A DNA stretch of 64,000 nucleotides from Candidatus Omnitrophota bacterium (GCA_043822665.1 JBDRBM010000050.1:22038-86037); one strand, 5' to 3'. Numbered from the stretch's first letter, positions 1,889 to 63,096 are shown. Notes: a model not told the origin generated them from the sequence alone. Numbers and translations: made by a program.

Positions 1889-1969
1889 AAGCAGCATAAG
1901 ATGCTGCGACTACATTTTAGGCTGCAGTTGCAGCGCCTTGCGCTGCTTATTCCATACAACAAGTTAAGC
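1889..1969. repeat. Composite dispersed repeat, copy 1 (hairpin element A plus AAGTTAAGC-type tail E).
   Basis: AAGCAGCATAAGATGCTGCGACTACATTTTAGGCTGCAGTTGCAGCGCCTTGCGCTGCTT (7-bp terminal inverted repeat with an internal GCAGCGC-ctt-GCGCTGC hairpin), followed by a degenerate E tail. Confidence 0.7.
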
Positions 1970-3097: not shown

Positions 3098-3195
3098 TAA
3101 AGTGTGCCCTACGCATTTGTCGCAAAGGCCTTCATAAGCGCCTTCTGTAGGGGAGGCTTAAGCCTCCCCTACAGAATACATTATAGCCTTTGCCT

Positions 3196-12803: not shown

Positions 12804-13628
12804 TCAATCCCAGATTTCGTGTATATTATTTATCTTGTCATATCTAAATACCGGGCCGTCTTTACACGCGTAAAAATTTCCTATCCTGCAATGGCCGCAT
12901 TTACCTATGCCACAGCTCATGTTTTTTTCCATTGACAGATAAATCTGCTCGTTCTTATAACCTACCTCAAGCAGTTTAAACGTAGTAAATTTCATCATTA
13001 TAGGAGGGCCGCATACAATAACAACGCTATTTTTTAGATCTATCTTCAAATTATCCAGAGTCGTAGTGACAAGTCCAACATTGCCTTTCCAATCGTCGTC
13101 TTTTTTATCCACTGTAATTCTGAAATTTACTTTTTTGCTAATCTTCTGCCATTCATCCAGTACGCGGTCTTTATATATGATGTCGGAAGGTGTCCTTGAG
13201 CCACAGCAGAATAATATAGCTTTATATCTATCAAGATCATGAACCAGCGCTAAAAATAACGCCCTTAATGGCGCAAGCCCTACACCCCCTCCTACCAGGA
13301 GGATTTCTTTTCCCTCAAACTCAGAAAGAGGGTACTCGTTGCCATATGGCCCTCTCAAGCCTACTATATCCCCTTTTTTCAATTCATGGATCCTTGCTGT
13401 CACCCTGCCTGCTTTCATGACGCTGATCTCAAGTTTGCTTTTTTCATACGGAGAAGAAGACGGCGTAAAAGGCGCCTCTCCTACGCCTGGTATGGTCATC
13501 TCAATAAACTGGCCTGCCTTAAAATGCAGCGGCTTCTCAGGCTTTAAGGAAATGGTCTTAATAGTAGGGCTTTCTTCAGTAACCCTGACTACTTCTGTCT
13601 TTATTGGAGCGTATGGGTTATCTATCAT
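12804..13628 (-). CDS. FAD/NAD(P)-binding oxidoreductase subunit with C-terminal [2Fe-2S] (sulfhydrogenase gamma HydG / AsrB-like).
   Basis: Ferredoxin-NADP reductase fold motifs (LLVGGGVGLAPL, GSRTP) and C-terminal CGIGKCGHCRIG…C cluster. A 4-nt overlap (ATGA) couples it to the upstream gene. Confidence 0.75.
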   Translation of the reverse strand: MIDNPYAPIKTEVVRVTEESPTIKTISLKPEKPLHFKAGQFIEMTIPGVGEAPFTPSSSPYEKSKLEISVMKAGRVTARIHELKKGDIVGLRGPYGNEYPLSEFEGKEILLVGGGVGLAPLRALFLALVHDLDRYKAILFCCGSRTPSDIIYKDRVLDEWQKISKKVNFRITVDKKDDDWKGNVGLVTTTLDNLKIDLKNSVVIVCGPPIMMKFTTFKLLEVGYKNEQIYLSMEKNMSCGIGKCGHCRIGNFYACKDGPVFRYDKINNIHEIWD

Positions 13629-14650
13629 GATTGAAATTTACTCAGCACCTCATCGATGCGTATCTTTCCGGGACATGCCTCGCTGCACCTTCCACAGCCA
13701 GTACAGCCGAATTTCCCTATAACATTAGGAAAGAAATTAAATTTTTTATCAAAGCGATTGCGCAGCCGCGAGGCTAAGAGCTTCCTGGGATTTGCCCCTC
13801 CCGCCACCATTGCGAAAGAAAATAAAAGACACGAATCCCATAATCTCAATCTTTCAAAATTACCGTCTTTTCCCTGATCTTTTAACACAAAACAGTGGCA
13901 TGCCGGGCATATCACATTACAGGCGCCGCACTCAACACAGGTCTTGACGGTCTCCTCCCATAAGCCTGAGTCGAATTTTTTCTTGAAAAGAGGCTGTATT
14001 GAATCTTTCTCGGGAATATTTTTATTTTTTACATGCTCAAAAAGTTCTTCTTTTAGCCTTTTTCTATTCTCTTCTCTTTTATCTTTATAAAGTCCAGCTC
14101 CCTGAAAAAGCTTAAAGTGCTCTTTTGTTAGTTTTTCTCCCTTTTCAGAACCCACATCTACCACATATCCGCTCTCTATTTCAGAAAGATTGATGTCGAA
14201 GTCTTCTGTCGGGTACGGCATTATACCCAGGGCAACACAAAAACAGCTTTGCCCATAACAAGCGCAATCACTCGAAATTATAAGGCCTTCTTCTCTCCTC
14301 TGGATATAAAAAGGATCTTTAAGGGAATCCTGCCTGAATACGTAATCCATTATTTTTAACGAAGCTAAATCACATGACTTGGCGCCTAAGATTGCTGCTG
14401 GCCTGATTTTTTTACCCGGGAGGTCTTCTGAAAAATAATCGCTTACCTTTGTGCGGACAGGGAGGAAAAAACTCTTTATGCTTTGGACAGGCCTTATCTC
14501 TCCGAGAATAGCCTCACCCAACCCCTCATCTCCCACCTTTTTATAATACCTGTGGTCGCCCGACTTTACAGGCGCATAGGCCTTGTATGTCCTGGAAAGA
14601 GCTTTTACGAATCTATCCAGGTTGGGCCTATTGATAAAGTAAGTATCCAA
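13625..14650 (-). CDS. Fe-S subunit (sulfhydrogenase beta HydB / AsrA-like).
   Basis: CVECGACNVICPACHC and FGCTGCGRCSEACP motifs, paired with the HydG-like gene. It is the first gene of the operon. Confidence 0.7.
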   Translation of the reverse strand: MDTYFINRPNLDRFVKALSRTYKAYAPVKSGDHRYYKKVGDEGLGEAILGEIRPVQSIKSFFLPVRTKVSDYFSEDLPGKKIRPAAILGAKSCDLASLKIMDYVFRQDSLKDPFYIQRREEGLIISSDCACYGQSCFCVALGIMPYPTEDFDINLSEIESGYVVDVGSEKGEKLTKEHFKLFQGAGLYKDKREENRKRLKEELFEHVKNKNIPEKDSIQPLFKKKFDSGLWEETVKTCVECGACNVICPACHCFVLKDQGKDGNFERLRLWDSCLLFSFAMVAGGANPRKLLASRLRNRFDKKFNFFPNVIGKFGCTGCGRCSEACPGKIRIDEVLSKFQS

Positions 14651-14669
14651 GAAAATTAACCTCTGGAAT

Positions 14670-14699
14670 CAAAGTTTGTGAAAATTATCACAAACTTTG
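14670..14699. promoter_or_regulatory. CRP/FNR-family type operator: perfect 12-bp inverted repeat caaagtTTGTGAaaattaTCACAAactttg.
   Basis: TGTGA-N6-TCACA core with 12-bp arms. It lies between the predicted -10 box and the start codon of the hydrogenase operon, i.e. in the 5' UTR. Confidence 0.55.
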
Positions 14700-14726
14700 A
14701 AAAAAATAAAAAATAACTTCTTTTTG

Positions 14727-14755
14727 ACTATAATACAAAGATCTTTTTATGTCAA
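14727..14755 (-). promoter_or_regulatory. Sigma70-like promoter (TTGACA-17 bp-TATAGT) for the hydrogenase operon.
   Basis: Read on the minus strand, TTGACA lies at ~14755-14750 and TATAGT at ~14732-14727, 17 bp apart. This is ~75 nt upstream of the hydB-like start codon. Confidence 0.5.
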
Positions 14756-14784
14756 GGGGTTTTTACTGGAAACTAAGTCAAGTT

Positions 14785-14880
14785 AAGCAGCATAAGATGC
14801 CGCGGCTACAGTTTAGGCTGTAGTTGCAGCGCCTTGCGCTGCTTGTAAAAAGAAAATTCCTATACTATACTATCAAGTTA
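14785..14880. repeat. Composite dispersed repeat, copy 2 (A+E).
   Basis: Near-identical to copy 1 (~90% over 60 nt), followed by AAAGAAAATTCCTATACTATACTATCAAGTTAAGC. Confidence 0.7.
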
Positions 14881-14881
14881 A

Positions 14882-14921
14882 GCACATTAGTAGGGGACCC
14901 TTAAGGGTCCCCTACTAATGT
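14882..14921. repeat. Perfect 40-bp palindrome CACATTAGTAGGGGACCCTT|AAGGGTCCCCTACTAATGTG.
   Basis: Perfect 20-bp arms with no spacer. Member of a 3-copy family sharing the GACCCTTAAGGGTC core. Confidence 0.75.
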
Positions 14922-14927
14922 GTGCCT

Positions 14928-14960
14928 ACAAAAAGGAATTTCCTACTATATCAAGTTACG
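14928..14960. repeat. E-type repeat (AAAAAGGAATTTCCTACTATATCAAGTTA) immediately 3' of the NIL-ferredoxin gene stop codon.
   Basis: Shares ~25/28 nt with the copies at 14849, 54047 and 62571. Confidence 0.6.
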
Positions 14961-14966
14961 CGCTTA

Positions 14967-15374
14967 TTAAAAGTGTAACTCCATGGCCCGAGGCGGACAG
15001 GCCTTTATGCACAATTCACACGCAATACACTTATCATTGTAAAAAAGCACCTTGCGCGTAGCGGGTTCTATTACAAGGGCCTCGGTCGGGCATATTGGCA
15101 CACACGCGCCGCAATGGGTACACTTTGACTCGTTTCTCTTTATATCCTTTGAAAGAGGTTGAACTGTCACGCCTATTGATTTCGCGTATTTAATTGCCTT
15201 GTCAAAATTCTTTTGTTCTCCAGTCAGCTCAAGAACCAATAATCCCTCTTCCCTTGGCGTAACATATGCCTTAAGTATATTGAACTGAAGGTCAAAGTCC
15301 TTTACCATTTTGTATACTATGGGCTGGTCAACGAGTCTGTGCGGAAATTTTAGAACAATTCGCCTGGATACCAC
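14967..15374 (-). CDS. NIL-domain / 2x[4Fe-4S] ferredoxin.
   Basis: N-terminal NIL domain (…DFDLQFNILKAYV…) fused to CTHCGACVPICP and CIACELCIKACP motifs. The start is GTG per the ORF track; it overlaps the upstream gene by 47 nt. Confidence 0.7.
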   Translation of the reverse strand: MVSRRIVLKFPHRLVDQPIVYKMVKDFDLQFNILKAYVTPREEGLLVLELTGEQKNFDKAIKYAKSIGVTVQPLSKDIKRNESKCTHCGACVPICPTEALVIEPATRKVLFYNDKCIACELCIKACPPRAMELHF

Positions 15375-18581: not shown

Positions 18582-18661
18582 CTTCGATTAGGCGCCATAT
18601 ACGTGTAGTGTAGTTGCAGCGTCTTGCGCTGCAAATCTTGTAGTCTTTCAATATAACCAAG

Positions 18662-18868
18662 CTATATACTTTTAAGCATGCGAAGGGTTTCTTCAGCTTT
18701 TTTAGGATCAAGTTTTTCTATGGCAAAACCCGCGTGCACCATGACATAATCCCCTATCCTGGGGCTGCTGAGAAAATTTATGCCTATCTTGCGCTCCACC
18801 TTTCCGGCAGACACAATCGCCCTGTCGCCCTCTATTTTTAAAATCTTCATTGGAATCGCCAGACACAT
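18662..18868 (-). CDS. hypC: Hydrogenase assembly chaperone HypC.
   Basis: Starts MCLAIP (conserved Cys2). 68 aa. Confidence 0.9.
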   Translation of the reverse strand: MCLAIPMKILKIEGDRAIVSAGKVERKIGINFLSSPRIGDYVMVHAGFAIEKLDPKKAEETLRMLKSI

Positions 18869-21186: not shown

Positions 21187-21224
21187 CACAATGTAGGTGA
21201 CCCTTAAGGGTCACCTACATTGTG
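21187..21224. repeat. Perfect 38-bp palindrome CACAATGTAGGTGACCCTT|AAGGGTCACCTACATTGTG.
   Basis: Lies in the intergenic region upstream of the metE-like gene. The sequence CTTATCCACAATGTAGGTGACCCTTAAGGGTCACCTAC is shared with the 61562 copy in opposite orientation. Confidence 0.75.
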
Positions 21225-26590: not shown

Positions 26591-28099
26591 TCATTGTAAT
26601 CTCTCGCCTTTCTGGCTTAGGATACTCGCTGTCACAAAAATTAAAAGATTCTTTCTCTGGACATTGTCTGAATCTTTTCTAAACAACCCTCCCAATAAAG
26701 GTATATCTCCCAGAAACGGCACCTTGGTCCGCGTATTTGTCCTTGTCTCCTTAACCAGGCCGCCAAGGACAATAGTATCGCCGTTTTTCACAACTATATT
26801 AGTATTCAAATTCCTTGTGGTAAACTTCGGTAATTTTACTTCTCCGCTAAAAGTAAAGGCATCAGGGGTTGCCTCGCTCACCTCTGGATTTAATGTCAAT
26901 GTTATGGTCTCTTTATCAGCGCCCACGCTGGGCGTCACTTTAAGTATAATGCCTATATCCCTTGTTTCAAACCCCTGCGGCACATTTACGAACCTTGTCT
27001 CCCTCACGCCGTCAACCACGTCAAGAAAAGTCCCGTTGTTATTCAGGTCCTGTTTTATCAGGGTCGGCTCATATCTGGATGGATATACAAATTCGTCAGC
27101 TATCTCTATTGTAGCAGTCTGATTATTCAAGGTTGTAATCTTCGGGGCTGAAAGCGTCTTGAGTTTTGTCTTTCTCTGAAGGGCATGCAGCACTGCTGAA
27201 AACTGGGGTTTTGTAAGCATACCCTGATATGTAAGGTTAAGCCCTTCATTGGGCGCGCCAGTAAAGGCCGAAAAACTTGAGCCTGTACCGCCTGATAATT
27301 GCGTCACTGCCGCACCATCATCCTTAAAAAACACCAACGGAGTATCCAGTGTTAGATTAACGCCCAATTCGCTCAGGTCTGTCACATCTACCTCTATGAA
27401 TCTCGTCTCTATGAGGATCTGGGCCGCGTCTACATCAAGGTTATAAAGAATCTTTTCTACAACCTTTAAATTAGACGGCGTGTTCGTCACTATCAGGGCG
27501 CCTGTGCGTTCATCTAAATTTATCTTGGAGTCACTCGGCCATGCCACAGCATTCTCAAGCACGTCCTTAATTGTATTTACCTTTGATATGCTGGCTACAC
27601 CGCCGAGTCCACTGCTTATGTCACCGGAAACACTCTGATCGAATTCAGTAAACATGGCCAGGCCCTGATTCAAATAATAGATCCTGGTCTCTGGCGTCTC
27701 TTCTTCCATTGCGTCAAATGTATCCACCCACACAGCATTCTTCTCAACCCTATAGGCCAGCCCTTCATTCCTGAAAATATACTTCAAAAGGCCCTCGAGC
27801 TGCATATCTTTCACGCGTATGGTCACTTTTTTTTCATCCGGTTTAACGCTATTGCCTAAAATGATGTTCACGCCTGTCGCGTCCGAGAGAAAATCAATAA
27901 CATAGCCAAGGCTTACGTCCCTGAAATCCACGGTTATGAGAGTCTCGAGCTTCTTTCTTATCTCGGGCACCAGGACCACAGAAAACTTATCTACATCAGA
28001 ACCGTCTCTAAGTGACCTTACTTCATAAGCGTATACAGACACTATACCGGCAAAAAAGACAGCTAATAAAAATACTGTAAAGACGCGCCTTTTTATCAT
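26591..28099 (-). CDS. Secretin (PilQ/GspD family), short form.
   Basis: Signal peptide. C-terminal secretin domain with …NGDTIVLGGLVKETRTNTRTKVPFLGDIPLLGGLFR…. Confidence 0.8.
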   Translation of the reverse strand: MIKRRVFTVFLLAVFFAGIVSVYAYEVRSLRDGSDVDKFSVVLVPEIRKKLETLITVDFRDVSLGYVIDFLSDATGVNIILGNSVKPDEKKVTIRVKDMQLEGLLKYIFRNEGLAYRVEKNAVWVDTFDAMEEETPETRIYYLNQGLAMFTEFDQSVSGDISSGLGGVASISKVNTIKDVLENAVAWPSDSKINLDERTGALIVTNTPSNLKVVEKILYNLDVDAAQILIETRFIEVDVTDLSELGVNLTLDTPLVFFKDDGAAVTQLSGGTGSSFSAFTGAPNEGLNLTYQGMLTKPQFSAVLHALQRKTKLKTLSAPKITTLNNQTATIEIADEFVYPSRYEPTLIKQDLNNNGTFLDVVDGVRETRFVNVPQGFETRDIGIILKVTPSVGADKETITLTLNPEVSEATPDAFTFSGEVKLPKFTTRNLNTNIVVKNGDTIVLGGLVKETRTNTRTKVPFLGDIPLLGGLFRKDSDNVQRKNLLIFVTASILSQKGERLQ

Positions 28100-30723
28100 T
28101 GTTCCCGCCCTACCTGGTCAGCTTGCGGCGAAACCGGTACGCTTGCCATTATATTGTCCTCTTTATTTAGAACAGTGGCTGTAACAAATATTAAAAGATT
28201 CCTGCGCTCTTTGCTGTCTATGCTTTTCCTGAATAACCCGCCTACAAACGGCAGATCCCCCAGCAATGGAACCTTTGTCTTTATATTGGTATCTGTCTCT
28301 TTTATAAGCCCTCCCAGCATCACTGTCTCTCCGCTCTCAACTATAACACTCGTCGAGAGATTTCTTGTCTTGAATTGCGGTATTGAAACATCTCCTGAAT
28401 AGGAAAAAGAACCTGAATCCTCGCTTACTTCCGGAGTCAATGCCAGGGTGATAGTCTTATTGTCCGCGCCAACGCTCGGTTTAACATGTAATAAGATGCC
28501 TACGTCTCTGGTTACGAAATCCTGTGGTATATTAGCCCATTCTGTCTCACCCGCGTCATCAAAATCTCCATCTCCGTTTATATCGAATTGCACAAGACTA
28601 ACCTCATACCTTGTAGGATAGATATATTCGTCTATAACTTCTATTGTCGCTCTCTGATTATTTAACGTTGTTATCCTCGGCGCGGACAAAGTCTTCACAT
28701 TCTGCTTTTCATTTAGGGCATGCATCACGGCCTGAAACTGCGGGTGGCTCAGGATCCCCTGGTATGTAAGATTAAAGCCTTCGTCTGATCTTGTAAAATC
28801 TGAAAAATCCACTCCGCCTCCGGAAGAAAATCCATGTATATTCTGTTTTGAGTTAGTCTGTTTAACCCCCCAATCACTATTGAGCTTCCATTCTATGCCA
28901 AGTTCATCCGTATCAGTAACCTTTACCTCTAAAAACCTGGCCTCGACCAATACCTGCACAGGCGTAACATCCAATGTATAAAGAAGATTCTCTATTGTTT
29001 CGAGGTTTGAAGGTATATTGCTTATTATCAGGGCTCCTGTGCGTTCATCCAGCGTCAATTTAGAGTCCTTTGGCCAATCCACGGCATTCTCGAGGATATC
29101 TTTAACCGTCTTCACCTCCGTAGAGGATGCGCTGGAGTCTTTACCGCCAGAAGAAACATTAAAGTCAGTAAACCTGCCTATGCCCTGGTTCAAAAAATAT
29201 ACCCTGGTATCTATGCTTTCATTTTTCAGCTCTTCTTTGGTCGCGACCCATACCGCGTCCTCTTCTATCCTGTAAACAAGATCTTGGGCTTTCAATATAT
29301 ACCTCAGGGCATCCTCAAGCGGCATATCTTTTATCTTCATGGTCACCTTTTTTTCAGACATCTCTATCTCACTTGAAGGCACTATATTTACGCCTGTGGC
29401 ATCTGATAAAAAAGAAAGCACATAATCAAGCTCCACATCTTTAAAATCCACGCTTATGGGTATCCCGAGCCTCTGCCTCACCTCAGGCACTTTCACGATG
29501 GGGGTTATCTTCTTCTTGTTTTCCAGAGTCCCTGTCTTTATCTCAGGAAGTAAATGTTTCTTCGCTACTTCCAGAAGCATCTTTTCTTCTGTGATTTCCC
29601 TGGCTCTACCCAATGCCTTTTCTTCAAGATGTATTTTCTGCAATTCTATATAATGCCCTATATCTTTAAATCTCTCGTTTTCAGGGAATTCTTCCATGGC
29701 CTGCGTCAGTGTTTTCTCCGCATCCTCAAAGTTATTGTCTCTTACCTGCTGGCGTATGGTATTCATCAACCCGTCTAATTTAGCTATCTTCTCCCTTATT
29801 ATCCGATCTTTAAGCCTTGCCTCGAAAATCTTCCTAAGTCTCGTTTTCTGCCTGTCCATCTTCTCTTTCTGCTTTAGCCTTAACTCTTCTTTAAGCGCCA
29901 GGCGTTTCTTTTCCTGTTCTAATTCCATATTAGCCTCCCTGGCCGCCTCCATCCTGACCAATAATTCCTTTTCTTCGTTTTCTTTTATCTGGGCCTGGGC
30001 CCTTTCTATAAAAGAATCTGACTGGCTGGCTAGTCTATTTTCCCGATCCAATTCCTTGACTCTTTTAAATTCCACTATGGCAGCCGGGTAATTTTGTTCG
30101 TTATAATATCCAAGGGCCCTCTCGTATGTGGACCGTACCTTTTTTTCCAGCTCAAGCGCCTTTTTTTTCTCAGTTTCTTCGGCAGAGCTTCTTTTTAACT
30201 CCTCTTCGCGTTTAATGCGCTTTTCTTCCTCTTCGCTGGCCTTTCTTACATTCTTCTCTGCCTCCTGCTGAACAACCTTTTCCGCTTCGCTTATAACATC
30301 GTTTTTCATCCTGGCCCATTTTCTATCCTCCAGAACAAGTCTCTCGCTGAGCCTGTCCTTTGATTTCTCAATATAGATCTCGGCAAAAGGCGTGAAATAT
30401 GATTCGTTCTGGGATTTTTCTATAGCCATCAGGTTTTCAAACACAGCAATAGCTTCTTCATATTTACCGCTTTCAAAAAGAGACATGGCTTTTTCAAAAT
30501 ATTTGCGAAGATCGACCCTTGAATACATCGCGGCCCTATTATTGTAAGCCGACGGCGAAGCCAAGGCAAAGGCCTGACTAAAAAATATGGACGAAAATAC
30601 GCCCACTAGCATAAAAACGCTTATTTTACATAATAATTTATGGTATGGAATTTCAAAAAGCAAAATTCCAACCACTGAAAATCTCAGAAAGTTATCGCCG
30701 AAAGCGATTTTCTTGTTTTTCAT
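28096..30723 (-). CDS. Secretin (PilQ/GspD family) with ~400-aa N-terminal TPR/Glu-Lys-rich coiled-coil extension.
   Basis: C-terminal secretin domain (…SGETVMLGGLIKETDTNIKTKVPLLGDLPFVGGLFR…). The N-terminal half is TPR-like followed by an E/K/R-rich low-complexity helix. Confidence 0.8.
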   Translation of the reverse strand: MKNKKIAFGDNFLRFSVVGILLFEIPYHKLLCKISVFMLVGVFSSIFFSQAFALASPSAYNNRAAMYSRVDLRKYFEKAMSLFESGKYEEAIAVFENLMAIEKSQNESYFTPFAEIYIEKSKDRLSERLVLEDRKWARMKNDVISEAEKVVQQEAEKNVRKASEEEEKRIKREEELKRSSAEETEKKKALELEKKVRSTYERALGYYNEQNYPAAIVEFKRVKELDRENRLASQSDSFIERAQAQIKENEEKELLVRMEAAREANMELEQEKKRLALKEELRLKQKEKMDRQKTRLRKIFEARLKDRIIREKIAKLDGLMNTIRQQVRDNNFEDAEKTLTQAMEEFPENERFKDIGHYIELQKIHLEEKALGRAREITEEKMLLEVAKKHLLPEIKTGTLENKKKITPIVKVPEVRQRLGIPISVDFKDVELDYVLSFLSDATGVNIVPSSEIEMSEKKVTMKIKDMPLEDALRYILKAQDLVYRIEEDAVWVATKEELKNESIDTRVYFLNQGIGRFTDFNVSSGGKDSSASSTEVKTVKDILENAVDWPKDSKLTLDERTGALIISNIPSNLETIENLLYTLDVTPVQVLVEARFLEVKVTDTDELGIEWKLNSDWGVKQTNSKQNIHGFSSGGGVDFSDFTRSDEGFNLTYQGILSHPQFQAVMHALNEKQNVKTLSAPRITTLNNQRATIEVIDEYIYPTRYEVSLVQFDINGDGDFDDAGETEWANIPQDFVTRDVGILLHVKPSVGADNKTITLALTPEVSEDSGSFSYSGDVSIPQFKTRNLSTSVIVESGETVMLGGLIKETDTNIKTKVPLLGDLPFVGGLFRKSIDSKERRNLLIFVTATVLNKEDNIMASVPVSPQADQVGREQ

Positions 30724-33791: not shown

Positions 33792-34103
33792 TTCAAGTTA
33801 ACTCGCTTCGCTCGTAACTTGTCCAAAGGGGCTTCGCCCCTATGGCGCTCCGCAATGCTCCTATTCGTCGCATTTCTCCGCTGTTACCCCTTGAGGGGGT
33901 GCCTACACCCCCTCAAACTCCTCCAGCAGTATTTAGGAAAGTATTTTATACTTTCCTAAATACTGTAAAAATAATTTACCTAGAACAAAAAACCCCTGAT
34001 AGGGGGTGATATAACTATATACTACCTGATAGTATTTGTCAAGGAAAGGCATTGGCTCATAGCTCATAGATCATAGCTCATCATATTGAAAACAAAAGAG
34101 TTA

Positions 34104-35992: not shown

Positions 35993-36005
35993 AAGTTAGG
36001 CAGAA

Positions 36006-36045
36006 CAAGCTTTGCGGTTACAACTCTATGTAGCTGCAAAGCTTG
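36006..36045 (-). terminator. Hairpin (caagctttgc…gcaaagcttg) downstream of the giant pseudopilin gene.
   Basis: 10-bp perfect stem, ~20-nt loop, no clear T-run. This may be an attenuator or RNA-processing site rather than a strong terminator. Confidence 0.3.
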
Positions 36046-36131
36046 CTTTGCCATTCCGCACTTTCAAATTCCATACAATTAATTATATTCTCCCAGTCTT
36101 AAAAAATCAAGGGTTTTTTATCTTTTATGCC

Positions 36132-51212: not shown

Positions 51213-51332
51213 TTAAGAATAAAAATAAGTATATCACTTAAATTTTTCATGTCAAGCCAAAAAATACTATATATTGGTATTTTTTTTCGGTTTATAGCTA
51301 TATGTTGTGGTTCTACTAACTTGCGCCTGCAA

Positions 51333-52088: not shown

Positions 52089-53959
52089 GCCCGTTTCTCC
52101 AGCTCTGTAATTATCTCAGACGCCCCTTGAAGAGACCTCTGCATATCTTCCCTGTTAAATTTACCGGACGCGAACCTCGCCATGTCACAGACATCAAAAA
52201 GGCCGCTAAGTTTTTTTATATTCTCTCCGGAATAACCCTTTTCCGCCAGGCGTTGTTCAAGAATATCCTTTGTGATCGAGGGATGAGGTATATTCAATTT
52301 GTCAGCTACATATTCTATAACTGCCCTGTATATCTCGGCATAAAACGCATTGACGTCATTTTTCAGCATAATATTTTTTGCCGCCTTAAGCCTTTTCCCT
52401 GCTGTGCCTTTTGCGCGGCGTGAACGCGCATAACCCACATCTGTCCTCAATCGTTCTTTGTGAATCTCATATATATAAAAGAATACCAATAGCAATAGCG
52501 GGAAAACATTAAATCCTATAAATATTCTATTCTTATAAAGAAATGAATTTTTCGGACCAAAATGAGGCATGGAAGTCTTTATATACGCAATGTCTTTTTT
52601 AAGCAGCTTGACCTCTTCTTTTGTCAAACCTGGAAATAAAACAATGCTTTCAGGCGCGGGTTGTTCTTTTGATTTTGTCGAGGTTATGCTTATAGGCCCG
52701 GCCTTTTTCTCGACGTACCTTTTATCTACAGGGTCAAAATAGGAATATCTTATCGGACCTATGATAAAGGTACCTGGTTTCTTTGGTATGACAACCTTTT
52801 CAAAGATCTTATCCCCCTCTACGACATAATCTATCTTTGAGATATTCTCAGAGCTTCCTGAATCATATAACTTCATATCGTCTATCTCCGGCAATTGAGG
52901 GGATGATATGGTCTTTATGTTACCCCTGCCGTTTATCTTTATCTTAAGAGTTACCGGCTGATTTTCCTCCACGCTATTTTTATCCACATCTGCCATGATA
53001 TCATAACCACCGACATCGCCCTTGAAATCCTGCGGCTTACCCTGTTCCGGCAGGGGAAGGATCTCTAATTTTATAGGCTCTGTCGTAAGTATAATGGGTT
53101 TCCCCGCGCGAAACATGCTGAAGGGGTCCCTATCAAAGATGTCAAACGGGCTCCTTGAGAACATCTTTTGCAGGTCTTCAATGCTTGCCTCAAGCCTGGC
53201 AGGGCCTATAGTAAACTCTCCCGGGCCTGTTGCGAAAAGAGCTGTTTTAATCTCTGTCACAAGGTATCTTGTCCCGTTTATCTCCTTATAATATTTCTTC
53301 TGCGGAGGCATGTCTTCTAACCAGAAGCCAGTGGTTGAAGGCGGGTTGTATATGGGATTCTGGAATAGATCTACTGACTGGTAAAATGCGAATGTAAGGG
53401 TAATCTGTTCGTTTACATATGCCCTGAGCTTATCTACATAGGCCTCTATAAACAATTCTTTGCCGGTCTGTTGGTCGTGCTCCTGGCCTTGTCCGTAACC
53501 TCCCTGCGGCCGTGGAGGCTGTGGATAATTGTATGATGGGGTTTGCGCTGAATTACTTGTCCCTCTCGGAGTGACTTTTATGCTTATAGGCCCGGCAGAA
53601 TATGTCTGGCCTTTGTAATCAATAGTAAAAGGCCCTAATGTATAACCTCCTGTATCATTAGGCACAAGTATATAATTAAACGCGACTGAACTTGTGACCT
53701 GGCCGTTTATAATAGAGATATTCTGCGATCTGCCTGAAGAATAGGCGATAAATCCATTCATGACCGGAATCTTAGGCTGTGGGATGTTCGAGATATTACC
53801 GTTTACTGTTATGGTAAGCGTGAGTTGTTCGTCAAGCGCAATCTCCTGCCTATCCACATCAGCAGAAATAGATATATCATCCGCGTAAGAATACGCGGCA
53901 ATAGACAAAAACAATAGAAACGCTATAAAAAGATTAACTTTTAACTTTAAACTTTTCAC
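52085..53959 (-). CDS. BatD-like oxygen-tolerance-family protein.
   Basis: 624 aa. Signal peptide, large beta-rich periplasmic region, TM and cytoplasmic tail, with BatD-like N-terminus. Confidence 0.6.
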   Translation of the reverse strand: MKSLKLKVNLFIAFLLFLSIAAYSYADDISISADVDRQEIALDEQLTLTITVNGNISNIPQPKIPVMNGFIAYSSGRSQNISIINGQVTSSVAFNYILVPNDTGGYTLGPFTIDYKGQTYSAGPISIKVTPRGTSNSAQTPSYNYPQPPRPQGGYGQGQEHDQQTGKELFIEAYVDKLRAYVNEQITLTFAFYQSVDLFQNPIYNPPSTTGFWLEDMPPQKKYYKEINGTRYLVTEIKTALFATGPGEFTIGPARLEASIEDLQKMFSRSPFDIFDRDPFSMFRAGKPIILTTEPIKLEILPLPEQGKPQDFKGDVGGYDIMADVDKNSVEENQPVTLKIKINGRGNIKTISSPQLPEIDDMKLYDSGSSENISKIDYVVEGDKIFEKVVIPKKPGTFIIGPIRYSYFDPVDKRYVEKKAGPISITSTKSKEQPAPESIVLFPGLTKEEVKLLKKDIAYIKTSMPHFGPKNSFLYKNRIFIGFNVFPLLLLVFFYIYEIHKERLRTDVGYARSRRAKGTAGKRLKAAKNIMLKNDVNAFYAEIYRAVIEYVADKLNIPHPSITKDILEQRLAEKGYSGENIKKLSGLFDVCDMARFASGKFNREDMQRSLQGASEIITELEKRA

Positions 53960-53990
53960 TTTAAACTACCACCCCTTACGCTCGTGACAG

Positions 53991-54080
53991 GTAAGATGCT
54001 GCGACTACATTTTAGGCTGTAGCTGCAGCGCCTTGCGCTGCTTCTAAAAAGGCAATCCCTATACTCTAAATTTAACTTTT
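53991..54080. repeat. Composite dispersed repeat, copy 3 (5'-truncated A plus E) between batC and batD.
   Basis: GTAAGATGCTGCGACTACATTTTAGGCTGTAGCTGCAGCGCCTTGCGCTGCTT, followed by CTAAAAAGGCAATCCCTATACTCTAAATTTAAC. Confidence 0.7.
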
Positions 54081-54087
54081 AACCAAA

Positions 54088-54888
54088 TCACCAATCCTTC
54101 TCCACTCTGTACCTGCCTTCGGCTGGTTGATTCCTTAATTCTTTTTGCAGGTCCTTTTCGTCGTCCTTCAGGGCATCAAGAAGCCTGACAGCATCTTCCT
54201 TTGACATCTCGCCGTCTTTCGATTCCTGTTGTCTTTGTTCCTCTTCCTTGACAGGCTTTTTCTCTTTTTGCTCACCCTCTTCTGTTTTTTCTTCTTTGGC
54301 CTGCGATTCCTGCTGTTCCTTTCCCCCTTCTTCTTCCGCTCCCTGTGCCTGCTGTTGCTCTTGCGCCTGAGATCTCTCTTCTTTAGCCTCCTCTTTATCT
54401 TTCTGATTCTGCTCTTGCGGCTGGGACTGCTGAGATTCTTCCTTTTGCGGATTCTCTTTTATCTTTTTCCTTACAAATTCTATGTTATATTTTGCGTCTT
54501 CATCGTCAGGGTTTATATCCAGGGTTTTTTTATAATACTCGATTGCTTCAGGCAGTTTACCCATCCTGTAAAAAGAATTCCCTATATTATAATACGTTTT
54601 TGCGTGAATTTCAGCATCTTTTGAGCTTAAAGATTTCTCATATTCTCCAGACGCGTCTTCATATTTTTTCTGCCGATAGAGGGCGCTTCCTATATTATAA
54701 TGCAGCTCTTCTTTATCAGGAGAATCTATCTGCGCGTCGCGCCATTTTAAAAGCGCCTCATCTATCCTGCCCTCTTTATACAGTTTTACACCTTCTTTAT
54801 TTTTCTTTGCAAGAGGGCCCTGCCATATCCACCCGACGCTGGAAAGATAAAACAAGCCTGTTAGCGCTATTACAAAAAATCTCTTCAT
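54088..54888 (-). CDS. BatC-like TPR protein with Glu/Gln/Lys-rich C-terminal tail.
   Basis: TPR repeats (…YYNIGNSFYRMGKLPEAIEYYKKTLDINPDD…) followed by the low-complexity acidic tail. Confidence 0.6.
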   Translation of the reverse strand: MKRFFVIALTGLFYLSSVGWIWQGPLAKKNKEGVKLYKEGRIDEALLKWRDAQIDSPDKEELHYNIGSALYRQKKYEDASGEYEKSLSSKDAEIHAKTYYNIGNSFYRMGKLPEAIEYYKKTLDINPDDEDAKYNIEFVRKKIKENPQKEESQQSQPQEQNQKDKEEAKEERSQAQEQQQAQGAEEEGGKEQQESQAKEEKTEEGEQKEKKPVKEEEQRQQESKDGEMSKEDAVRLLDALKDDEKDLQKELRNQPAEGRYRVEKDW

Positions 54889-61478: not shown

Positions 61479-61561
61479 TAATCATTTCTTAATCATTTCT
61501 TAATCATTTCTTAATCATTTCTTAAACATAATCAAATTCTGCCCGTAATCAAATTCTGCCC
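61479..61561. repeat. Tandem repeats: (AATCATTTCTT)x4 followed by (AATCAAATTCTGCCCGTA)x2.
   Basis: Direct tandem copies in the divergent promoter region, immediately adjacent to palindrome copy 3. Confidence 0.7.
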
Positions 61562-61599
61562 GTAGGTGACCCTTAAGGGTCACCTACATTGTGGATAAG
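61562..61599. repeat. Palindrome-family copy 3 (GTAGGTGACCCTTAAGGGTCACCTAC plus shared flank ATTGTGGATAAG).
   Basis: 26-bp perfect palindrome plus a 12-nt flank identical to the 21181 copy. It sits in the divergent intergenic region 61403-61672. Confidence 0.7.
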
Positions 61600-62467: not shown

Positions 62468-62504
62468 AACAATAAATTAACCCTCGCCTTCGGCTCGGGC
62501 ACTT

Positions 62505-62564
62505 GATTACACAGATTTTAACAACAGATTACACAGATTAAACCTTATTTACATCTGTGTAATC
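62505..62564. terminator. Inverted repeat in the convergent intergenic region (GATTACACAGAT x2 … ATCTGTGTAATC). Possible bidirectional terminator.
   Basis: A 12-bp arm is repeated twice directly and once inverted between the convergently transcribed 61673-62467 (+) and 62611-63096 (-) genes. Confidence 0.4.
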
Positions 62565-62570
62565 ACTTTA

Positions 62571-62605
62571 AAAAAGGAAATTCCTATACTATCAAGTTAT
62601 AACCC
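62571..62605. repeat. E-type repeat (AAAAAGGAAATTCCTATACTATCAAGTTA) immediately 3' of the ACT-domain gene.
   Basis: Best-conserved copy of the E motif. Confidence 0.6.
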
Positions 62606-62610
62606 TCGCT

Positions 62611-63096
62611 TCATACTGAATTAAGGATCCTAAACGCCTCATTGTTATCTGCTGTTGAAAGCACTATTTTGGCCGGACAGCCGCCTGAACAGGTCGTACA
62701 GTAAAGATAATCTATATTTATCCCATTTCCGGCAAGCACTTCAGAAATATTCTTCAATGTCCCGGGCCTATTTTCAAGCTCCATTACAATAACTTCCCTT
62801 TCCTCAATATCCTCATATTCATTATTAATTAACTCGTCGATTGATTTTTGATTATTATCGGTTATAAATACAAGCATGCCTTCAGTACCGGTTTGATTCG
62901 AATATCCTGCTACTGTCTCTATATTTATGCCGTGGTTTACCAAAAATGACATCATCCGAGCCAGCGCCCCAACTTCATTCCTGGTCCTTACGCTGATCTC
63001 TTTTGCTCTTACCAAGTTTCTAATCACGCGGGTCTCCTTTAAACAGTAAGAACTATTCCCAATTATTAATACCTCTTGTATCTGCTGGCAGGACAA
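62611..63096 (-). CDS. Tandem ACT-domain protein.
   Basis: Two ACT-like segments (…ISVRTRNEVGALARMMSFLVNHGINI… and …NRPGTLKNISEVLAGNGINI…). The start is uncertain; it overlaps the upstream gene by 44 nt. Confidence 0.5.
   Translation of the reverse strand: MSCQQIQEVLIIGNSSYCLKETRVIRNLVRAKEISVRTRNEVGALARMMSFLVNHGINIETVAGYSNQTGTEGMLVFITDNNQKSIDELINNEYEDIEEREVIVMELENRPGTLKNISEVLAGNGINIDYLYCTTCSGGCPAKIVLSTADNNEAFRILNSV

What the first reader, a model, noticed from the sequence alone, without database searches (positions are those of the whole stretch)
1889..1969. Dispersed composite hairpin repeat family (A/E elements) in at least five intergenic sites
A ~60-nt element bounded by a 7-bp inverted repeat (AAGCAGC…GCTGCTT) with an internal GCAGCGC-ctt-GCGCTGC hairpin recurs at 1889-1948, 14785-14844 and 53991-54043 (~90% identity). 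A fragment lies at 18611-18640. Each copy is followed by a second conserved ~28-nt motif, AAAAAGGAAATTCCTATACTATCAAGTTA. This E motif is also found alone at 14928-14960 and 62571-62605. Strikingly, on the coding (minus) strand E begins right at or within a few nt of the stop codon of three different genes: the NIL ferredoxin, batC and the ACT protein. There it reads TAACTTGATAGTATAGGAATTTCC followed by a T-run. It looks like a REP/MITE-like or small-RNA-like element family that has been recruited as a 3'-end, terminator or inter-operon punctuation signal.
Basis: seen in the sequence. Interest (0 to 1): 0.6.

Follow-up and report, generated by a model that had tools for sequence, protein, structure and literature searches.

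The report
REP-type hairpin repeats with conserved tail
The repeated hairpin element is real and is a new member of a well-known class of small bacterial repeats (REP/REPIN elements, copied by a dedicated transposase), here in an uncultured Omnitrophota genome and carrying an unusual conserved tail that sits against the stop codons of neighbouring genes.

Summary
Element A occurs at the stated coordinates, and I found one further diverged copy at 35999-36052.

A is not one 60-nt hairpin. It is two inverted ~24-nt units of the form GTAG-NN-7 bp stem-CTT-7 bp stem. That is a tail-to-tail dimer of GTAG-tagged REP palindromes (a REPIN-like element).
- Covariation supports the two local hairpins, not the long one.
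- The identical 24-mer occurs in 14 contigs of Omnitrophota and Elusimicrobiota MAGs and in 39 metagenome contigs.
- One of those contigs (L019) encodes a REP-associated tyrosine transposase (RAYT) flanked by the same units. No RAYT lies in the window.

Motif E is also real and recurs in other MAGs.
- It is joined colinearly to the end of a REP or another hairpin.
- It points at the stop codon of the upstream gene in 16 of 19 non-redundant cases, and sometimes contains that stop.
- The opposite flank usually ends in AARTTA, as E does.
- I infer that E is the polar tail of a composite non-autonomous element. It could instead be its preferred target.

No intrinsic-terminator signature, promoter or Rfam match was found, so the terminator or small-RNA reading is unsupported.

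Verdict: new member of a known kind, of moderate interest.

The parts
1889..1948 (+). A copy 1: tail-to-tail dimer of two REP units. The left unit is inverted (body GCAGCATAAGATGCTGC, CTAC at 1910-1913). The right unit runs 1924-1946 and its tag is mutated to GCAG.
1949..1969 (+). Degenerate, shortened E tail (TTCCATACAACAAGTTAAGC). It ends 14 nt from the hycI stop codon (1982-1984).
   Evidence: by inspection
14779..14784 (+). AAGTTA on the left flank of A copy 2. It repeats the last bases of E: the 11-nt direct repeat TCAAGTTAAGC spans this junction and recurs where E joins the B palindrome at about 14883.
14785..14844 (+). A copy 2: tail-to-tail REP dimer (units 14787-14809 inverted and 14820-14842).
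14845..14883 (+). E tail of A copy 2, carrying a 5-nt internal duplication (TATAC).
14883..14922 (.). B-type GTAG palindrome (CACATTAGTAGGGGACCC-TTAA-GGGTCCCCTACTAATGTG), followed by its own E.
   Evidence: (family D3)
14928..14960 (+). E copy following the B palindrome. It ends 6-9 nt from the stop codon of the NIL-ferredoxin gene (14967-14969).
18609..18632 (+). Solo REP unit (TGTAG-TT-GCAGCGT-CTT-GCGCTGC) between hypC and hypD.
18633..18664 (+). Degenerate E-like tail (AAATCTTGTAGTCTTTCAATATAACCAAGCTA). Its last three bases are the complement of the hypC stop codon TAG.
   Evidence: by inspection only
35999..36052 (+). Diverged tail-to-tail dimer (GGCAGAACAAGCTTTGCGGTTACA - actctat - GTAGCTGCAAAGCTTGCTTTGCC), preceded by AAGTTA at 35993-35998.
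36062..36086 (+). E-like tail (TTTCAAATTCCATACAATTAATTA) of the diverged dimer.
53991..54043 (+). A copy 3: tail-to-tail dimer with the left unit truncated at its 5' end.
54044..54075 (+). E tail of A copy 3. It ends 12-14 nt from the stop codon of the TPR/batC gene (54088-54090).
62503..62564 (.). Non-GTAG hairpin (GATTACACAGAT ... ATCTGTGTAATC, with an extra direct copy) that precedes the E copy at site 5.
   Evidence: by inspection
62571..62599 (+). E copy (the reference sequence AAAAAGGAAATTCCTATACTATCAAGTTA). It ends 11-12 nt from the stop codon of the ACT-domain gene (62611-62613).
30634..30657 (-). E-like copy in the opposite orientation. It is the 3' half of the hairpin TGGTTGGAATTT..AAATTCCATACCA and lies within an 85-nt stretch 93% identical to L004 2892-2976.

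Best explanation
**What it is.** Element A is a REPIN-like dimer of GTAG-tagged repetitive extragenic palindromes (REPs). Two ~24-nt units (GTAG, 2 nt, 7-bp stem, CTT loop, 7-bp stem) lie in inverted orientation with the GTAG tags facing an 8-11-nt spacer. The unit nearer E has the CGC/GCG stem and the distal unit has the CAT/ATG stem.

**How it most likely spreads (inferred from what is known of RAYT/REP and IS200/IS605 systems).** Such units fold as hairpins in single-stranded DNA. They are recognised, cut and rejoined in trans by a REP-associated tyrosine (HUH/Y1) transposase (RAYT). This has spread them as singles, dimers and clusters through intergenic DNA of Omnitrophota and Elusimicrobiota genomes.

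**Motif E (inferred, less certain).** I read E as the conserved ~30-nt polar tail of the composite element, hairpin(s) plus E. The composite sits with E towards the upstream gene. It has AARTTA both at E's outer end and on the opposite flank. On the gene's sense strand it therefore begins TAAYTT, at or just after the stop codon.

**Consequence for the host (inferred).** The element is carried in the 3' untranslated region. It may act there as a stable RNA hairpin, but it is not a canonical terminator.
For: **Unit anatomy and GTAG tag.**
- Searches show the unit structure.
- GTAG is the commonest tetranucleotide 6 nt upstream of GC-rich 7-bp hairpins: 25 of 210 in the loci and 4 of 125 in the window.

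**Compensatory stems.**
- There are 115 instances in distinct contexts. The inner triplets are CGC:GCG (57) or CAT:ATG (34).
- 35 of 42 distinct units are fully complementary, against a shuffle mean of 12 and maximum of 20.

**Local hairpins, not the long one.**
- Local hairpins: 98.5% of cells paired, 29 double-change cells, 0 of 500 shuffles reach this.
- The 23-bp long hairpin: 88.5% paired against 89.8% in shuffles.

**Spread and arrangement.**
- Dispersed copies occur in 14 MAG contigs and 39 metagenome contigs.
- They lie mostly between co-directional housekeeping genes.
- They occur as dimers and as alternating clusters with conserved spacers.

**Cognate transposase (L019 13103-13620).**
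- Pfam Y1_Tnp scores 40-45 bits.
- NCBIfam REP-associated tyrosine transposase scores 80.0 bits, exactly at its cut-off.
- The best PDB match is E. coli TnpA-REP 4ER8, E = 2.7e-6.
- The gene is flanked on both sides by the same REP units.

**E as part of the unit.**
- The REP-E junction is colinear in the window (two copies) and in seven loci outside it (L011, L022, L027, L029, L035, L045, L053): GCTGCC-T[GA]AAGA[AT]CTTT[GA]AAATTCC...AAATTA.
- Every E in the window is next to a hairpin.
- E points at a convergent stop codon in 16 of 19 non-redundant cases, and lies within 25 nt of it in 10.
- By eye, the left flank ends in AA[AG]TTA or AATTA in about 8 of 10 dimers.

**Variable presence.** Three relatives at 75-78% BatD identity lack the element in the batC-batD spacer.
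Against: - No RAYT is encoded in the 64-kb window. The rest of this genome could not be read, so cognate pairing in this organism is unshown.
- The closest named RAYT homologues are from Elusimicrobia MAGs, not Omnitrophota.
- Genome-wide copy number is unknown. I count 9 A-family units in 64 kb.
- Identical 24-mers across two phyla are unusual for REPs, which are described as largely lineage-specific.
- Published RAYT biochemistry places cleavage at CT or CA dinucleotides next to the stem (PMC8266576). Many units here end GCTGC-CT. That would put E outside the mobilised unit and make it a target or flank instead.
- The flanking direct repeats vary in length from 6 to 26 nt.
- No clean filled-versus-empty site was found.
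- E also accompanies a hairpin without a GTAG tag at 62503-62564.
Confidence: 0.78

Rival explanations
1. E is not part of the mobile unit. It is a separate, pre-existing short repeat or half-palindrome at gene 3' ends that serves as the preferred landing site for REP dimers and other hairpins. This would resemble the conserved tracts into which GTAG-15 dimers of Anabaena variabilis, or the REPs of T. roseum and H. neapolitanus, are inserted.
For: - Different hairpin types precede E: A-type REPs, B-type GTAG palindromes and a hairpin without a GTAG tag.
- E occurs on both sides of the dimer in L004 and at window site 2.
- Known RAYT cleavage at a CT next to the stem would exclude E from the unit.
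- Di Nocera 2013 describes REP dimers embedded in conserved flanking tracts, one of which contains TATAGGA...TCCTATA.
- At window 30634-30657 and in L004, E is half of a hairpin of its own.
Against: - No E was found away from a hairpin among the ~28 intergenic spacers of the window or in the loci.
- The REP-E junction, including its spacer, is conserved colinearly across several MAGs.
- E overlaps or replaces the last codons of unrelated genes. That is what an inserted sequence does, not a native signal.
Confidence: 0.3
2. The elements are host-recruited 3'-end RNA signals whose primary role is at the RNA level. They would be transcription terminators, or mRNA-stabilising or inter-operon punctuation hairpins.
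For: - The position is immediately downstream of stop codons and, at sites 1 and 2, upstream of the next gene's sigma-70-like promoter.
- The hairpins are stable: -33 to -36 kcal/mol, z about -3.
- From established knowledge of E. coli, REPs in 3' untranslated regions protect mRNA from 3' exonucleases and can attenuate transcription or translation.
Against: - No hairpin followed by a T-run was found on either strand at the three A sites: 0 found, against 0.2-0.3 expected.
- On the sense strand the T/A-rich run precedes the hairpin.
- Units also occur in frame inside ORFs (L007, RAYT genes).
- Three relatives with the same bat operon lack the element.
- A transposase partner explains the family without invoking any RNA function.
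Confidence: 0.15
3. A/E is a classical DDE-type MITE with terminal inverted repeats and a target-site duplication.
For: - AAGCAGC...GCTGCTT looks like terminal inverted repeats.
- An 11-nt direct repeat, TCAAGTTAAGC, flanks A+E at 14779-14883.
Against: - The 'inverted repeats' are the bodies of two GTAG-tagged hairpin units that also occur singly and in clusters.
- The direct repeats are always AARTTA-like and vary from 6 to 26 nt, rather than being random sequence of fixed length.
- The associated transposase is an HUH/Y1 enzyme.
Confidence: 0.04
4. A is an independently transcribed small RNA or cis-regulatory RNA.
For: It has a strong predicted fold and is conserved across MAGs.
Against: - There is no Rfam match at gathering threshold, and only chance-level matches at E <= 1.
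- No consistent promoter is present. The one promoter-like site at 14843-14871 depends on a copy-specific 5-nt duplication.
- Flanking genes are unrelated housekeeping genes.
- The fold is equally good on both strands.
- Covariation supports only the two 17-nt hairpins.
Confidence: 0.03

Closest known systems
GTAG-tagged REPs and their dimers (Di Nocera et al. 2013, PMC3733652; e.g. Stenotrophomonas SMAGs, Pseudomonas GTAG-1 REPs and REPINs of Bertels & Rainey 2011)
   Same: - A short perfect palindrome with a 6-9 bp stem and a 2-4 nt loop.
- A conserved unpaired GTAG at one end, here separated from the stem by a non-pairing dinucleotide, as described for GTAG-1 and GTAG-2.
- Sub-families with complementary stem changes.
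- Singles, tail-to-tail and head-to-head dimers, and clusters.
- Heterodimers.
- Location downstream of ORFs between co-directional genes.
- Occasional copies inside genes.
   Different: - The sequence family (GCAGCGC-CTT-GCGCTGC) and the host phyla (Omnitrophota, Elusimicrobiota) are not among the 24 families or 8 phyla listed there. I checked this against the text I read, not against the figure.
- The same 24-mer is shared by MAGs assigned to two phyla.
- The dimer carries a conserved ~30-nt one-sided tail (E).
RAYT / TnpA-REP 'REPtrons' (Nunvar 2010, PMC2817692; Messing 2012, PDB 4ER8; Corneloup 2021, PMC8266576)
   Same: - In L019, a Y1/HUH transposase gene is flanked on both sides by the cognate REPs.
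- It has an HUH motif (HVH) and a YxxNP tyrosine motif.
- Its best PDB match is E. coli TnpA-REP.
   Different: - The RAYT was found only in related metagenome contigs, not in the window.
- RAYTs of this clade carry REP-derived segments in frame inside their own coding sequence.
- Neither the cleavage site nor any role for E has been tested.
E. coli BIMEs (bacterial interspersed mosaic elements)
   Same: It works like one: REP units in alternating orientation are combined with conserved non-REP motifs into composite intergenic mosaics. Clusters with conserved spacers are seen in L001, L013, L014 and L019.
   Different: - There is no sequence relationship.
- By inspection, the IHF consensus WATCAANNNNTTR is not matched by E.
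- E lies outside the dimer rather than between the units.
IS200/IS605-derived miniature elements (PATEs) and the IS608 single-strand 'peel and paste' scheme
   Same: - Sub-terminal hairpins with a 5' guide tetranucleotide.
- One end abuts a specific short target (here AARTTA) without a fixed-length duplication.
- An asymmetric tail lies between the right hairpin and the element's end.
- There is strand polarity.
   Different: - No IS200/IS605 transposase or TnpB partner was seen.
- The proposed left and right boundary sequences are identical.
- The guide-to-cleavage-site pairing rule does not obviously fit GTAG with AARTTA.

Membership tests
GTAG-tagged REP (repetitive extragenic palindrome) | Short (20-40 bp) unit able to fold into a stem-loop | tested here: met
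   The unit is 24 nt, with a 7-bp stem and a 3-nt loop. 98.5% of cells are paired across 14 dimers.
GTAG-tagged REP (repetitive extragenic palindrome) | Conserved unpaired GTAG tetranucleotide at one end of the palindrome | tested here: met
   GTAG is the most frequent tag upstream of GC-rich hairpins: 25 of 210 in the loci and 4 of 125 in the window. One window unit has GCAG instead.
GTAG-tagged REP (repetitive extragenic palindrome) | Sub-families that differ by complementary stem changes | tested here: met
   CGC:GCG (57) versus CAT:ATG (34). 35 of 42 distinct units are complementary, against a shuffle maximum of 20. 29 cells show double changes; 0 of 500 shuffles reach this.
GTAG-tagged REP (repetitive extragenic palindrome) | High copy number per genome (>100 according to Nunvar 2010) | not testable with these tools
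   There are 9 A-family units and 4 B-type palindromes in 64 kb. The rest of the genome is not available: the source contig is 86 kb, and neither protein looked up (HypD, BatD/P0001) is on record in the contig collection.
GTAG-tagged REP (repetitive extragenic palindrome) | Extragenic, mainly downstream of ORFs between co-directional or convergent genes | tested here: met
   All window copies are intergenic. Across the loci I count 29 co-directional, 2 convergent, 4 divergent and 16 'inside ORF', using crude ORF calls of which some are spurious.
REPIN-RAYT system (REPtron) | Two REPs in inverted orientation separated by a short spacer | tested here: met
   24 non-redundant dimers with 7-11-nt spacers and the GTAG tags facing inwards, i.e. 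tail-to-tail.
REPIN-RAYT system (REPtron) | A RAYT gene (Y1/HUH transposase) flanked by the cognate REPs somewhere in the lineage | tested here: met
   L019 13103-13620: Y1_Tnp 40-45 bits; NF047646 80.0 bits, equal to its cut-off; 4ER8 E = 2.7e-6. The same REP units lie at 12965-13095 and 13608-13680.
REPIN-RAYT system (REPtron) | The cognate RAYT is present in the same genome as the REPs | not testable with these tools
   None in the window by motif scan or tblastn. Named homologues are from Elusimicrobia MAGs.
REPIN-RAYT system (REPtron) | Evidence of mobility (filled versus empty sites) | tested here: inconclusive
   The batC-batD spacer is 36-56 nt without the element in relatives, against 128 nt with it in the window. 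However, the relatives share only 75-78% protein identity. A flank-based search among the loci found only replacement of one hairpin type by another.
Intrinsic (Rho-independent) terminator | GC-rich hairpin immediately followed by a T/U run on the transcribed strand | tested here: not met
   0 terminator-like sites at 14600-15000, 1800-2000 and 53940-54100 on either strand. On the sense strand the T/A run lies 5' of the hairpin.
Described RNA families (Rfam 15) | Match to a covariance model at its gathering score | tested here: not met
   0 matches in the whole window. At E <= 1, only chance-level matches of 19-21 bits against cut-offs of 64-90.
DDE-type MITE | Terminal inverted repeats plus a fixed-length target-site duplication of arbitrary sequence | tested here: not met
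   The flanking direct repeats are always AARTTA-like and vary from 6 to 26 nt. The 'inverted repeats' are separable REP units.

The most novel reading that the evidence does not exclude
The composite (REP dimer plus E) may be a polar, target-specific single-strand transposon.
- It would land on TAAYTT, that is, on TAA stop codons and their AT-rich wake.
- It would carry its own TAAYTT at the leading end. An insertion exactly at a stop codon would then regenerate the stop and leave the gene intact. This would explain why E begins at or inside stop codons in several MAGs.

Two related points:
- The cognate RAYT clade carries its own REP sequences in frame within its coding sequence.
- The whole REPtron appears to be shared between Omnitrophota and Elusimicrobiota, which implies horizontal transfer of a REP-RAYT system usually regarded as vertically inherited.
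Probability: 0.2. Interest if true: 0.6.

Novelty: new member of a known kind. Interest (0 to 1): 0.38.

Why it matters
REP/REPIN-RAYT systems have been characterised almost entirely in Proteobacteria, with scattered cases elsewhere. In the papers I could search, I found none that mention Omnitrophota together with REPs.

Why the identification is useful:
- **Annotation.** It explains a conspicuous class of intergenic repeats in these small, gene-dense genomes of uncultured bacteria. It also warns annotators that the repeats can create spurious ORFs and can sit in frame inside real genes.
- **A testable case for an open question.** The conserved one-sided tail and its tight relation to stop codons bear on what defines the ends and the target of a REP-type element.
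- **Inheritance.** The apparent sharing of one REP sequence across two phyla, and RAYT genes that contain their own REPs, would bear on whether these systems are strictly vertically inherited.

Tried and rejected
**Rejected readings**
- **Rfam.** Nothing at gathering threshold for the whole window, and only chance-level hits at E <= 1 for 14600-15000. No tRNA or tmRNA genes.
- **Terminator.** No hairpin-plus-T-run at the three A sites.
- **E as a sigma-70 promoter, either strand.** By eye the hexamer spacings do not fit. The only scan hit (14843-14871) depends on a copy-specific duplication.
- **Sigma-54 and IHF consensus in E.** Not matched, by inspection.
- **Integron attC.** GTTAAGC fits GTTRRRY, but it occurs as direct rather than inverted repeats and only AAGC pairs. 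Rejected by inspection.
- **CRISPR-like mini-array (E as repeat, hairpins as spacers).** Rejected: 2-3 degenerate copies and palindromic 'spacers'.
- **One 60-nt hairpin as the selected structure.** Rejected by covariation.

**Searches that led nowhere**
- Looking for the window's own genome: HypD and the 100%-identical BatD (P0001) are not on record as encoding contigs.
- RAYT in the window: motif scan and tblastn both negative.
- Naming the organisms of unnamed RAYT homologues: the cluster look-up returned no names.
- Filled-versus-empty sites among the fetched loci: only a swap of an A-type dimer for a B-type hairpin at one orthologous spacer.

**Chance matches to discard.** Two metagenome hits (L016, L023) lie in GC-rich coding sequence and are probably chance matches to the 24-mer.

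Full report

Yes. Reading the five sites and the repeat finder show element A at 1889-1948, 14785-14844 and 53991-54043. Copy 3 lacks the first ~8 nt. A 24-nt piece lies at 18609-32.

The core 17-mer GCAGCGCCTTGCGCTGC gives 7 matches at up to 3 mismatches, against 0.07 expected from shuffles.

Motif E follows copies 2 and 3 (family D6). After copy 1 it is a shortened, degenerate version. E also lies at 14928-14960 and 62571-62599.

All flanking genes are on the minus strand:
- hycI then a BFN-domain gene;
- NIL-ferredoxin then a Fer4_22 protein;
- hypC then hypD;
- TPR/batC then batD;
- an ACT-domain gene convergent with an unknown gene.

- a diverged dimer plus E at 35999-36086;
- a degenerate E next to the hypC-hypD unit, whose first three sense-strand bases are the hypC stop codon (by inspection);
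- an E-like copy in reverse orientation at 30634-30657.

**2. What element A really is**

Each copy can fold into one long imperfect hairpin on either strand: -33 to -36 kcal/mol, z about -3 for copies 1 and 2. Its anatomy, however, is two inverted copies of a smaller unit.

On the + strand the element reads:
- an inverted unit, with body GCAGCATAAGATGCTGC, then NN, then CTACA;
- an 8-nt spacer;
- a forward unit, TGTAG-TT-GCAGCGC-CTT-GCGCTGC.

A scan of one representative genome per species found the 24-nt unit exactly in 14 contigs. These come from at least six Omnitrophota MAGs and two Elusimicrobiota MAGs. A scan of JGI metagenomes found 39 more contigs. In those contigs the units occur as singles, as inverted dimers and as alternating clusters with conserved spacers.

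Evidence that the small unit is the selected structure:
- GTAG is the commonest tetranucleotide placed 2 nt before GC-rich 7-bp hairpins: 25 of 210 in the loci and 4 of 125 in the window.
- I used a search that fixes only the tag and the outer stem bases. It found 115 instances in distinct contexts. The inner stem triplets were CGC:GCG (57) or CAT:ATG (34).
- 35 of 42 distinct units were fully complementary, against a shuffle mean of 12 and maximum of 20.
- On an alignment of 14 dimers, the two local hairpins are 98.5% paired with 29 double-change cells, and 0 of 500 shuffles reach this.
- The 23-bp long hairpin is 88.5% paired, no better than shuffles at 89.8%.

So the 17-nt hairpin is the selected unit. 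The 'bounding 7-bp inverted repeat' is a by-product of two inverted units.

In the nomenclature of Di Nocera et al. 2013 (PMC3733652), A is a tail-to-tail heterodimer of GTAG-tagged REPs.

**3. The transposase partner**

Metagenome contig L019 encodes, at 13103-13620, a 172-aa protein with an HUH motif (PTHVHIIL) and the tyrosine motif YIINNP.
- It matches Pfam Y1_Tnp at 40-45 bits.
- With an internal insert removed, it matches NCBIfam NF047646 'REP-associated tyrosine transposase' at 80.0 bits. That is exactly the curated cut-off.
- Its best match among solved structures is E. coli TnpA-REP (4ER8, E = 2.7e-6), ahead of the ISDra2 transposase.
- The gene is flanked on both sides by clusters of the same REP units. 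Its stop codon is the TAG of a GTAG tag.

This is the defining arrangement of a RAYT 'REPtron' (Nunvar 2010, PMC2817692). Fragments of the same gene lie in L018, L037 and L048.

No RAYT is encoded in the window. The window comes from an 86-kb contig of an Omnitrophota MAG. I could not read the rest of that genome. The closest named RAYT homologues are from Elusimicrobia MAGs. Whether this genome has its own RAYT is therefore unshown.

**4. Motif E**

A profile built from 15 E copies finds E-like sequences in many of the fetched contigs. Three regularities emerge.

- **E always accompanies a hairpin.**
  - Most often E is joined colinearly to the body end of an A-type REP.
  - The junction reads GCTGCC-T[GA]AAGA[AT]CTTT[GA]AAATTCC(T)ATAC...AA[AG]TTA in L011, L022, L027, L029, L035, L045 and L053. 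The window has a variant with GTAAAAAG or CTAAAAAG.
  - E also follows a B-type GTAG palindrome (14883-14922; also L020). At site 5 it follows a hairpin without a GTAG tag.
- **E is polar.**
  - In 16 of 19 non-redundant cases with a called neighbour, E points at the stop codon of a convergent gene. In 10 of these it lies within 25 nt of the stop. By my own arithmetic the one-sided binomial probability is about 0.002.
  - On the gene's sense strand E reads TAAYTT... It starts exactly at the stop in L004, L011 and L035.
  - It contains the stop further in, at its internal TAG, in L026, L027 and L053.
  - In the window it lies 0 to 14 nt after the stop at five sites (by inspection).
- **The opposite flank resembles E's end.** By eye, the flank on the far side of the dimer ends in AA[AG]TTA or AATTA in about 8 of 10 dimers. 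This gives direct repeats of 6 to 26 nt.

I read this as a composite, polar, non-autonomous element made of hairpin(s) plus the E tail. Its outer end and its target share AARTTA, which is TAAYTT on the sense strand.

The alternative cannot be excluded without empty sites. In it, E is a preferred landing pad and only the dimer moves. Published RAYT cleavage at CT or CA next to the stem favours this reading (PMC8266576).

**5. What it is not**

- No hairpin-plus-T-run was found on either strand at the three A sites. On the sense strand the T/A run precedes the hairpin.
- Canonical TTGACA-17-TATAGT-type promoters lie downstream of the element at sites 1 and 2 (site 1 by inspection). The element therefore sits at the 3' end of the upstream transcription unit.
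- Rfam gives nothing.
- An RNA-level role such as 3'-end protection, known for E. coli REPs, is possible but untested.

**6. Variable presence**

BatD has a 100% match in an Omnitrophota MAG and relatives at 75-78% identity. Those relatives keep the batA/B-batC-batD-TPR-RNR gene order. Their batC-batD spacers differ, however:
- 36 nt in L055;
- 56 nt with an unrelated hairpin in L054;
- 167 nt of other repeats in L057;
- 128 nt, mostly E plus A, in the window.

One orthologous spacer (L033 versus L032) carries an A-type dimer in one contig and a B-type hairpin in the other. This fits turnover of inserted elements, but it is not a clean filled-versus-empty comparison.

**7. Comparison with known systems, and verdict**

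The family meets the tested defining features of GTAG-tagged REPs and of REPIN-like dimers. It has a RAYT partner in the lineage. It fails the tests for an intrinsic terminator, for any Rfam family and for a DDE-type MITE.

It works like E. coli BIMEs, which are mosaics of alternating REPs and extra motifs. It also resembles miniature elements of the IS200/IS605 type, with sub-terminal hairpins, a guide tetranucleotide, a specific short target and polarity.

New here:
- the host phyla;
- the particular sequence family, apparently shared across two phyla;
- the one-sided conserved tail with its relation to stop codons;
- RAYT genes that contain their own REP sequences in frame.

I rate it a new member of a known kind, of moderate interest. 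I put the REP/REPIN identity at about 0.8 and the 'E is the element's tail' reading at about 0.5.

Noticed in passing
L019 13396-13495; proteins P0121-P0127, P0141, P0146; L059 2430-2680: RAYT genes of this clade carry REP-derived segments in frame at the same two loops. Examples are VAAPSYGAN (from GTAGCCGCACCATCTTATGGTGCCAAT), AAQGAAAT and AKQALRLQ. With the insert removed, the full Y1_Tnp profile aligns. So the transposase gene contains its own substrate sequence.
   Followed up: partly
L007 3560-3720: Four REP units lie in frame inside an ORF of more than 2665 aa. They are translated as ...DAKLALPEGDLGSRASSAATHDVLPAQGAATTDVAQQAAQGAATT....
   Followed up: partly
window 3143-3176, 14883-14922, 21187-21224, 61562-61587: A second GTAG palindrome family, GTAGG(G/T)GA(CC/GG)C-TTAA-..., in which GTAG pairs with CTAC. 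Its stems show compensatory variants. Relatives occur in L019, L020 and L031.
   Followed up: partly
window 30635-30720 (minus strand) and L004 2892-2976: An 85-nt stretch is 93% identical between two different MAGs, while the sequence around it is unrelated. It contains a hairpin (ATCGC-TTTCG-GCGAT in the window; CTTCG loop in L004) and the palindrome TGGTTGGAATTT..AAATTCCATACCA, whose 3' half is E-like. In the window it forms the first 29 codons of the 875-aa ORF. The true start may be the ATG at about 30600, which opens a signal-peptide-like sequence.
   Followed up: partly
window 51213-51332: Upstream of the 2018-aa ribonucleotide reductase gene, whose homologues in relatives contain inteins, lie two palindromes resembling NrdR boxes around a TTGACA promoter. 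Both are strongly conserved in L054, L055 and L057. The NrdR assignment is from memory of the consensus and was not tested.
   Followed up: no
window 61479-61564: Four tandem copies of the 11-nt unit TAATCATTTCT, then two copies of AATCAAATTCTGCCCGT, directly before a B-type palindrome.
   Followed up: no
window 33927-33965: A perfect 18-bp AT-rich hairpin (CAGTATTTAGGAAAGTAT-TTT-ATACTTTCCTAAATACTG) inside an unusually long 377-nt spacer.
   Followed up: no
L057 1340-1500: The batC-batD spacer of a marine Omnitrophota MAG is filled with tandem GGTATTTGGAATTT repeats and their inverted copies. These resemble the GGTATGGAATTT core of E(rc).
   Followed up: no
window 26591-28099 and 28096-30723: Two adjacent paralogous genes (502 and 875 aa) share 53% identity over 458 aa. 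This accounts for the 112-nt direct repeat D2.
   Followed up: no
L016, L023: Two metagenome hits to the 24-mer lie in GC-rich coding sequence without a GTAG context. They are probably chance matches and should be excluded from any census.
   Followed up: partly
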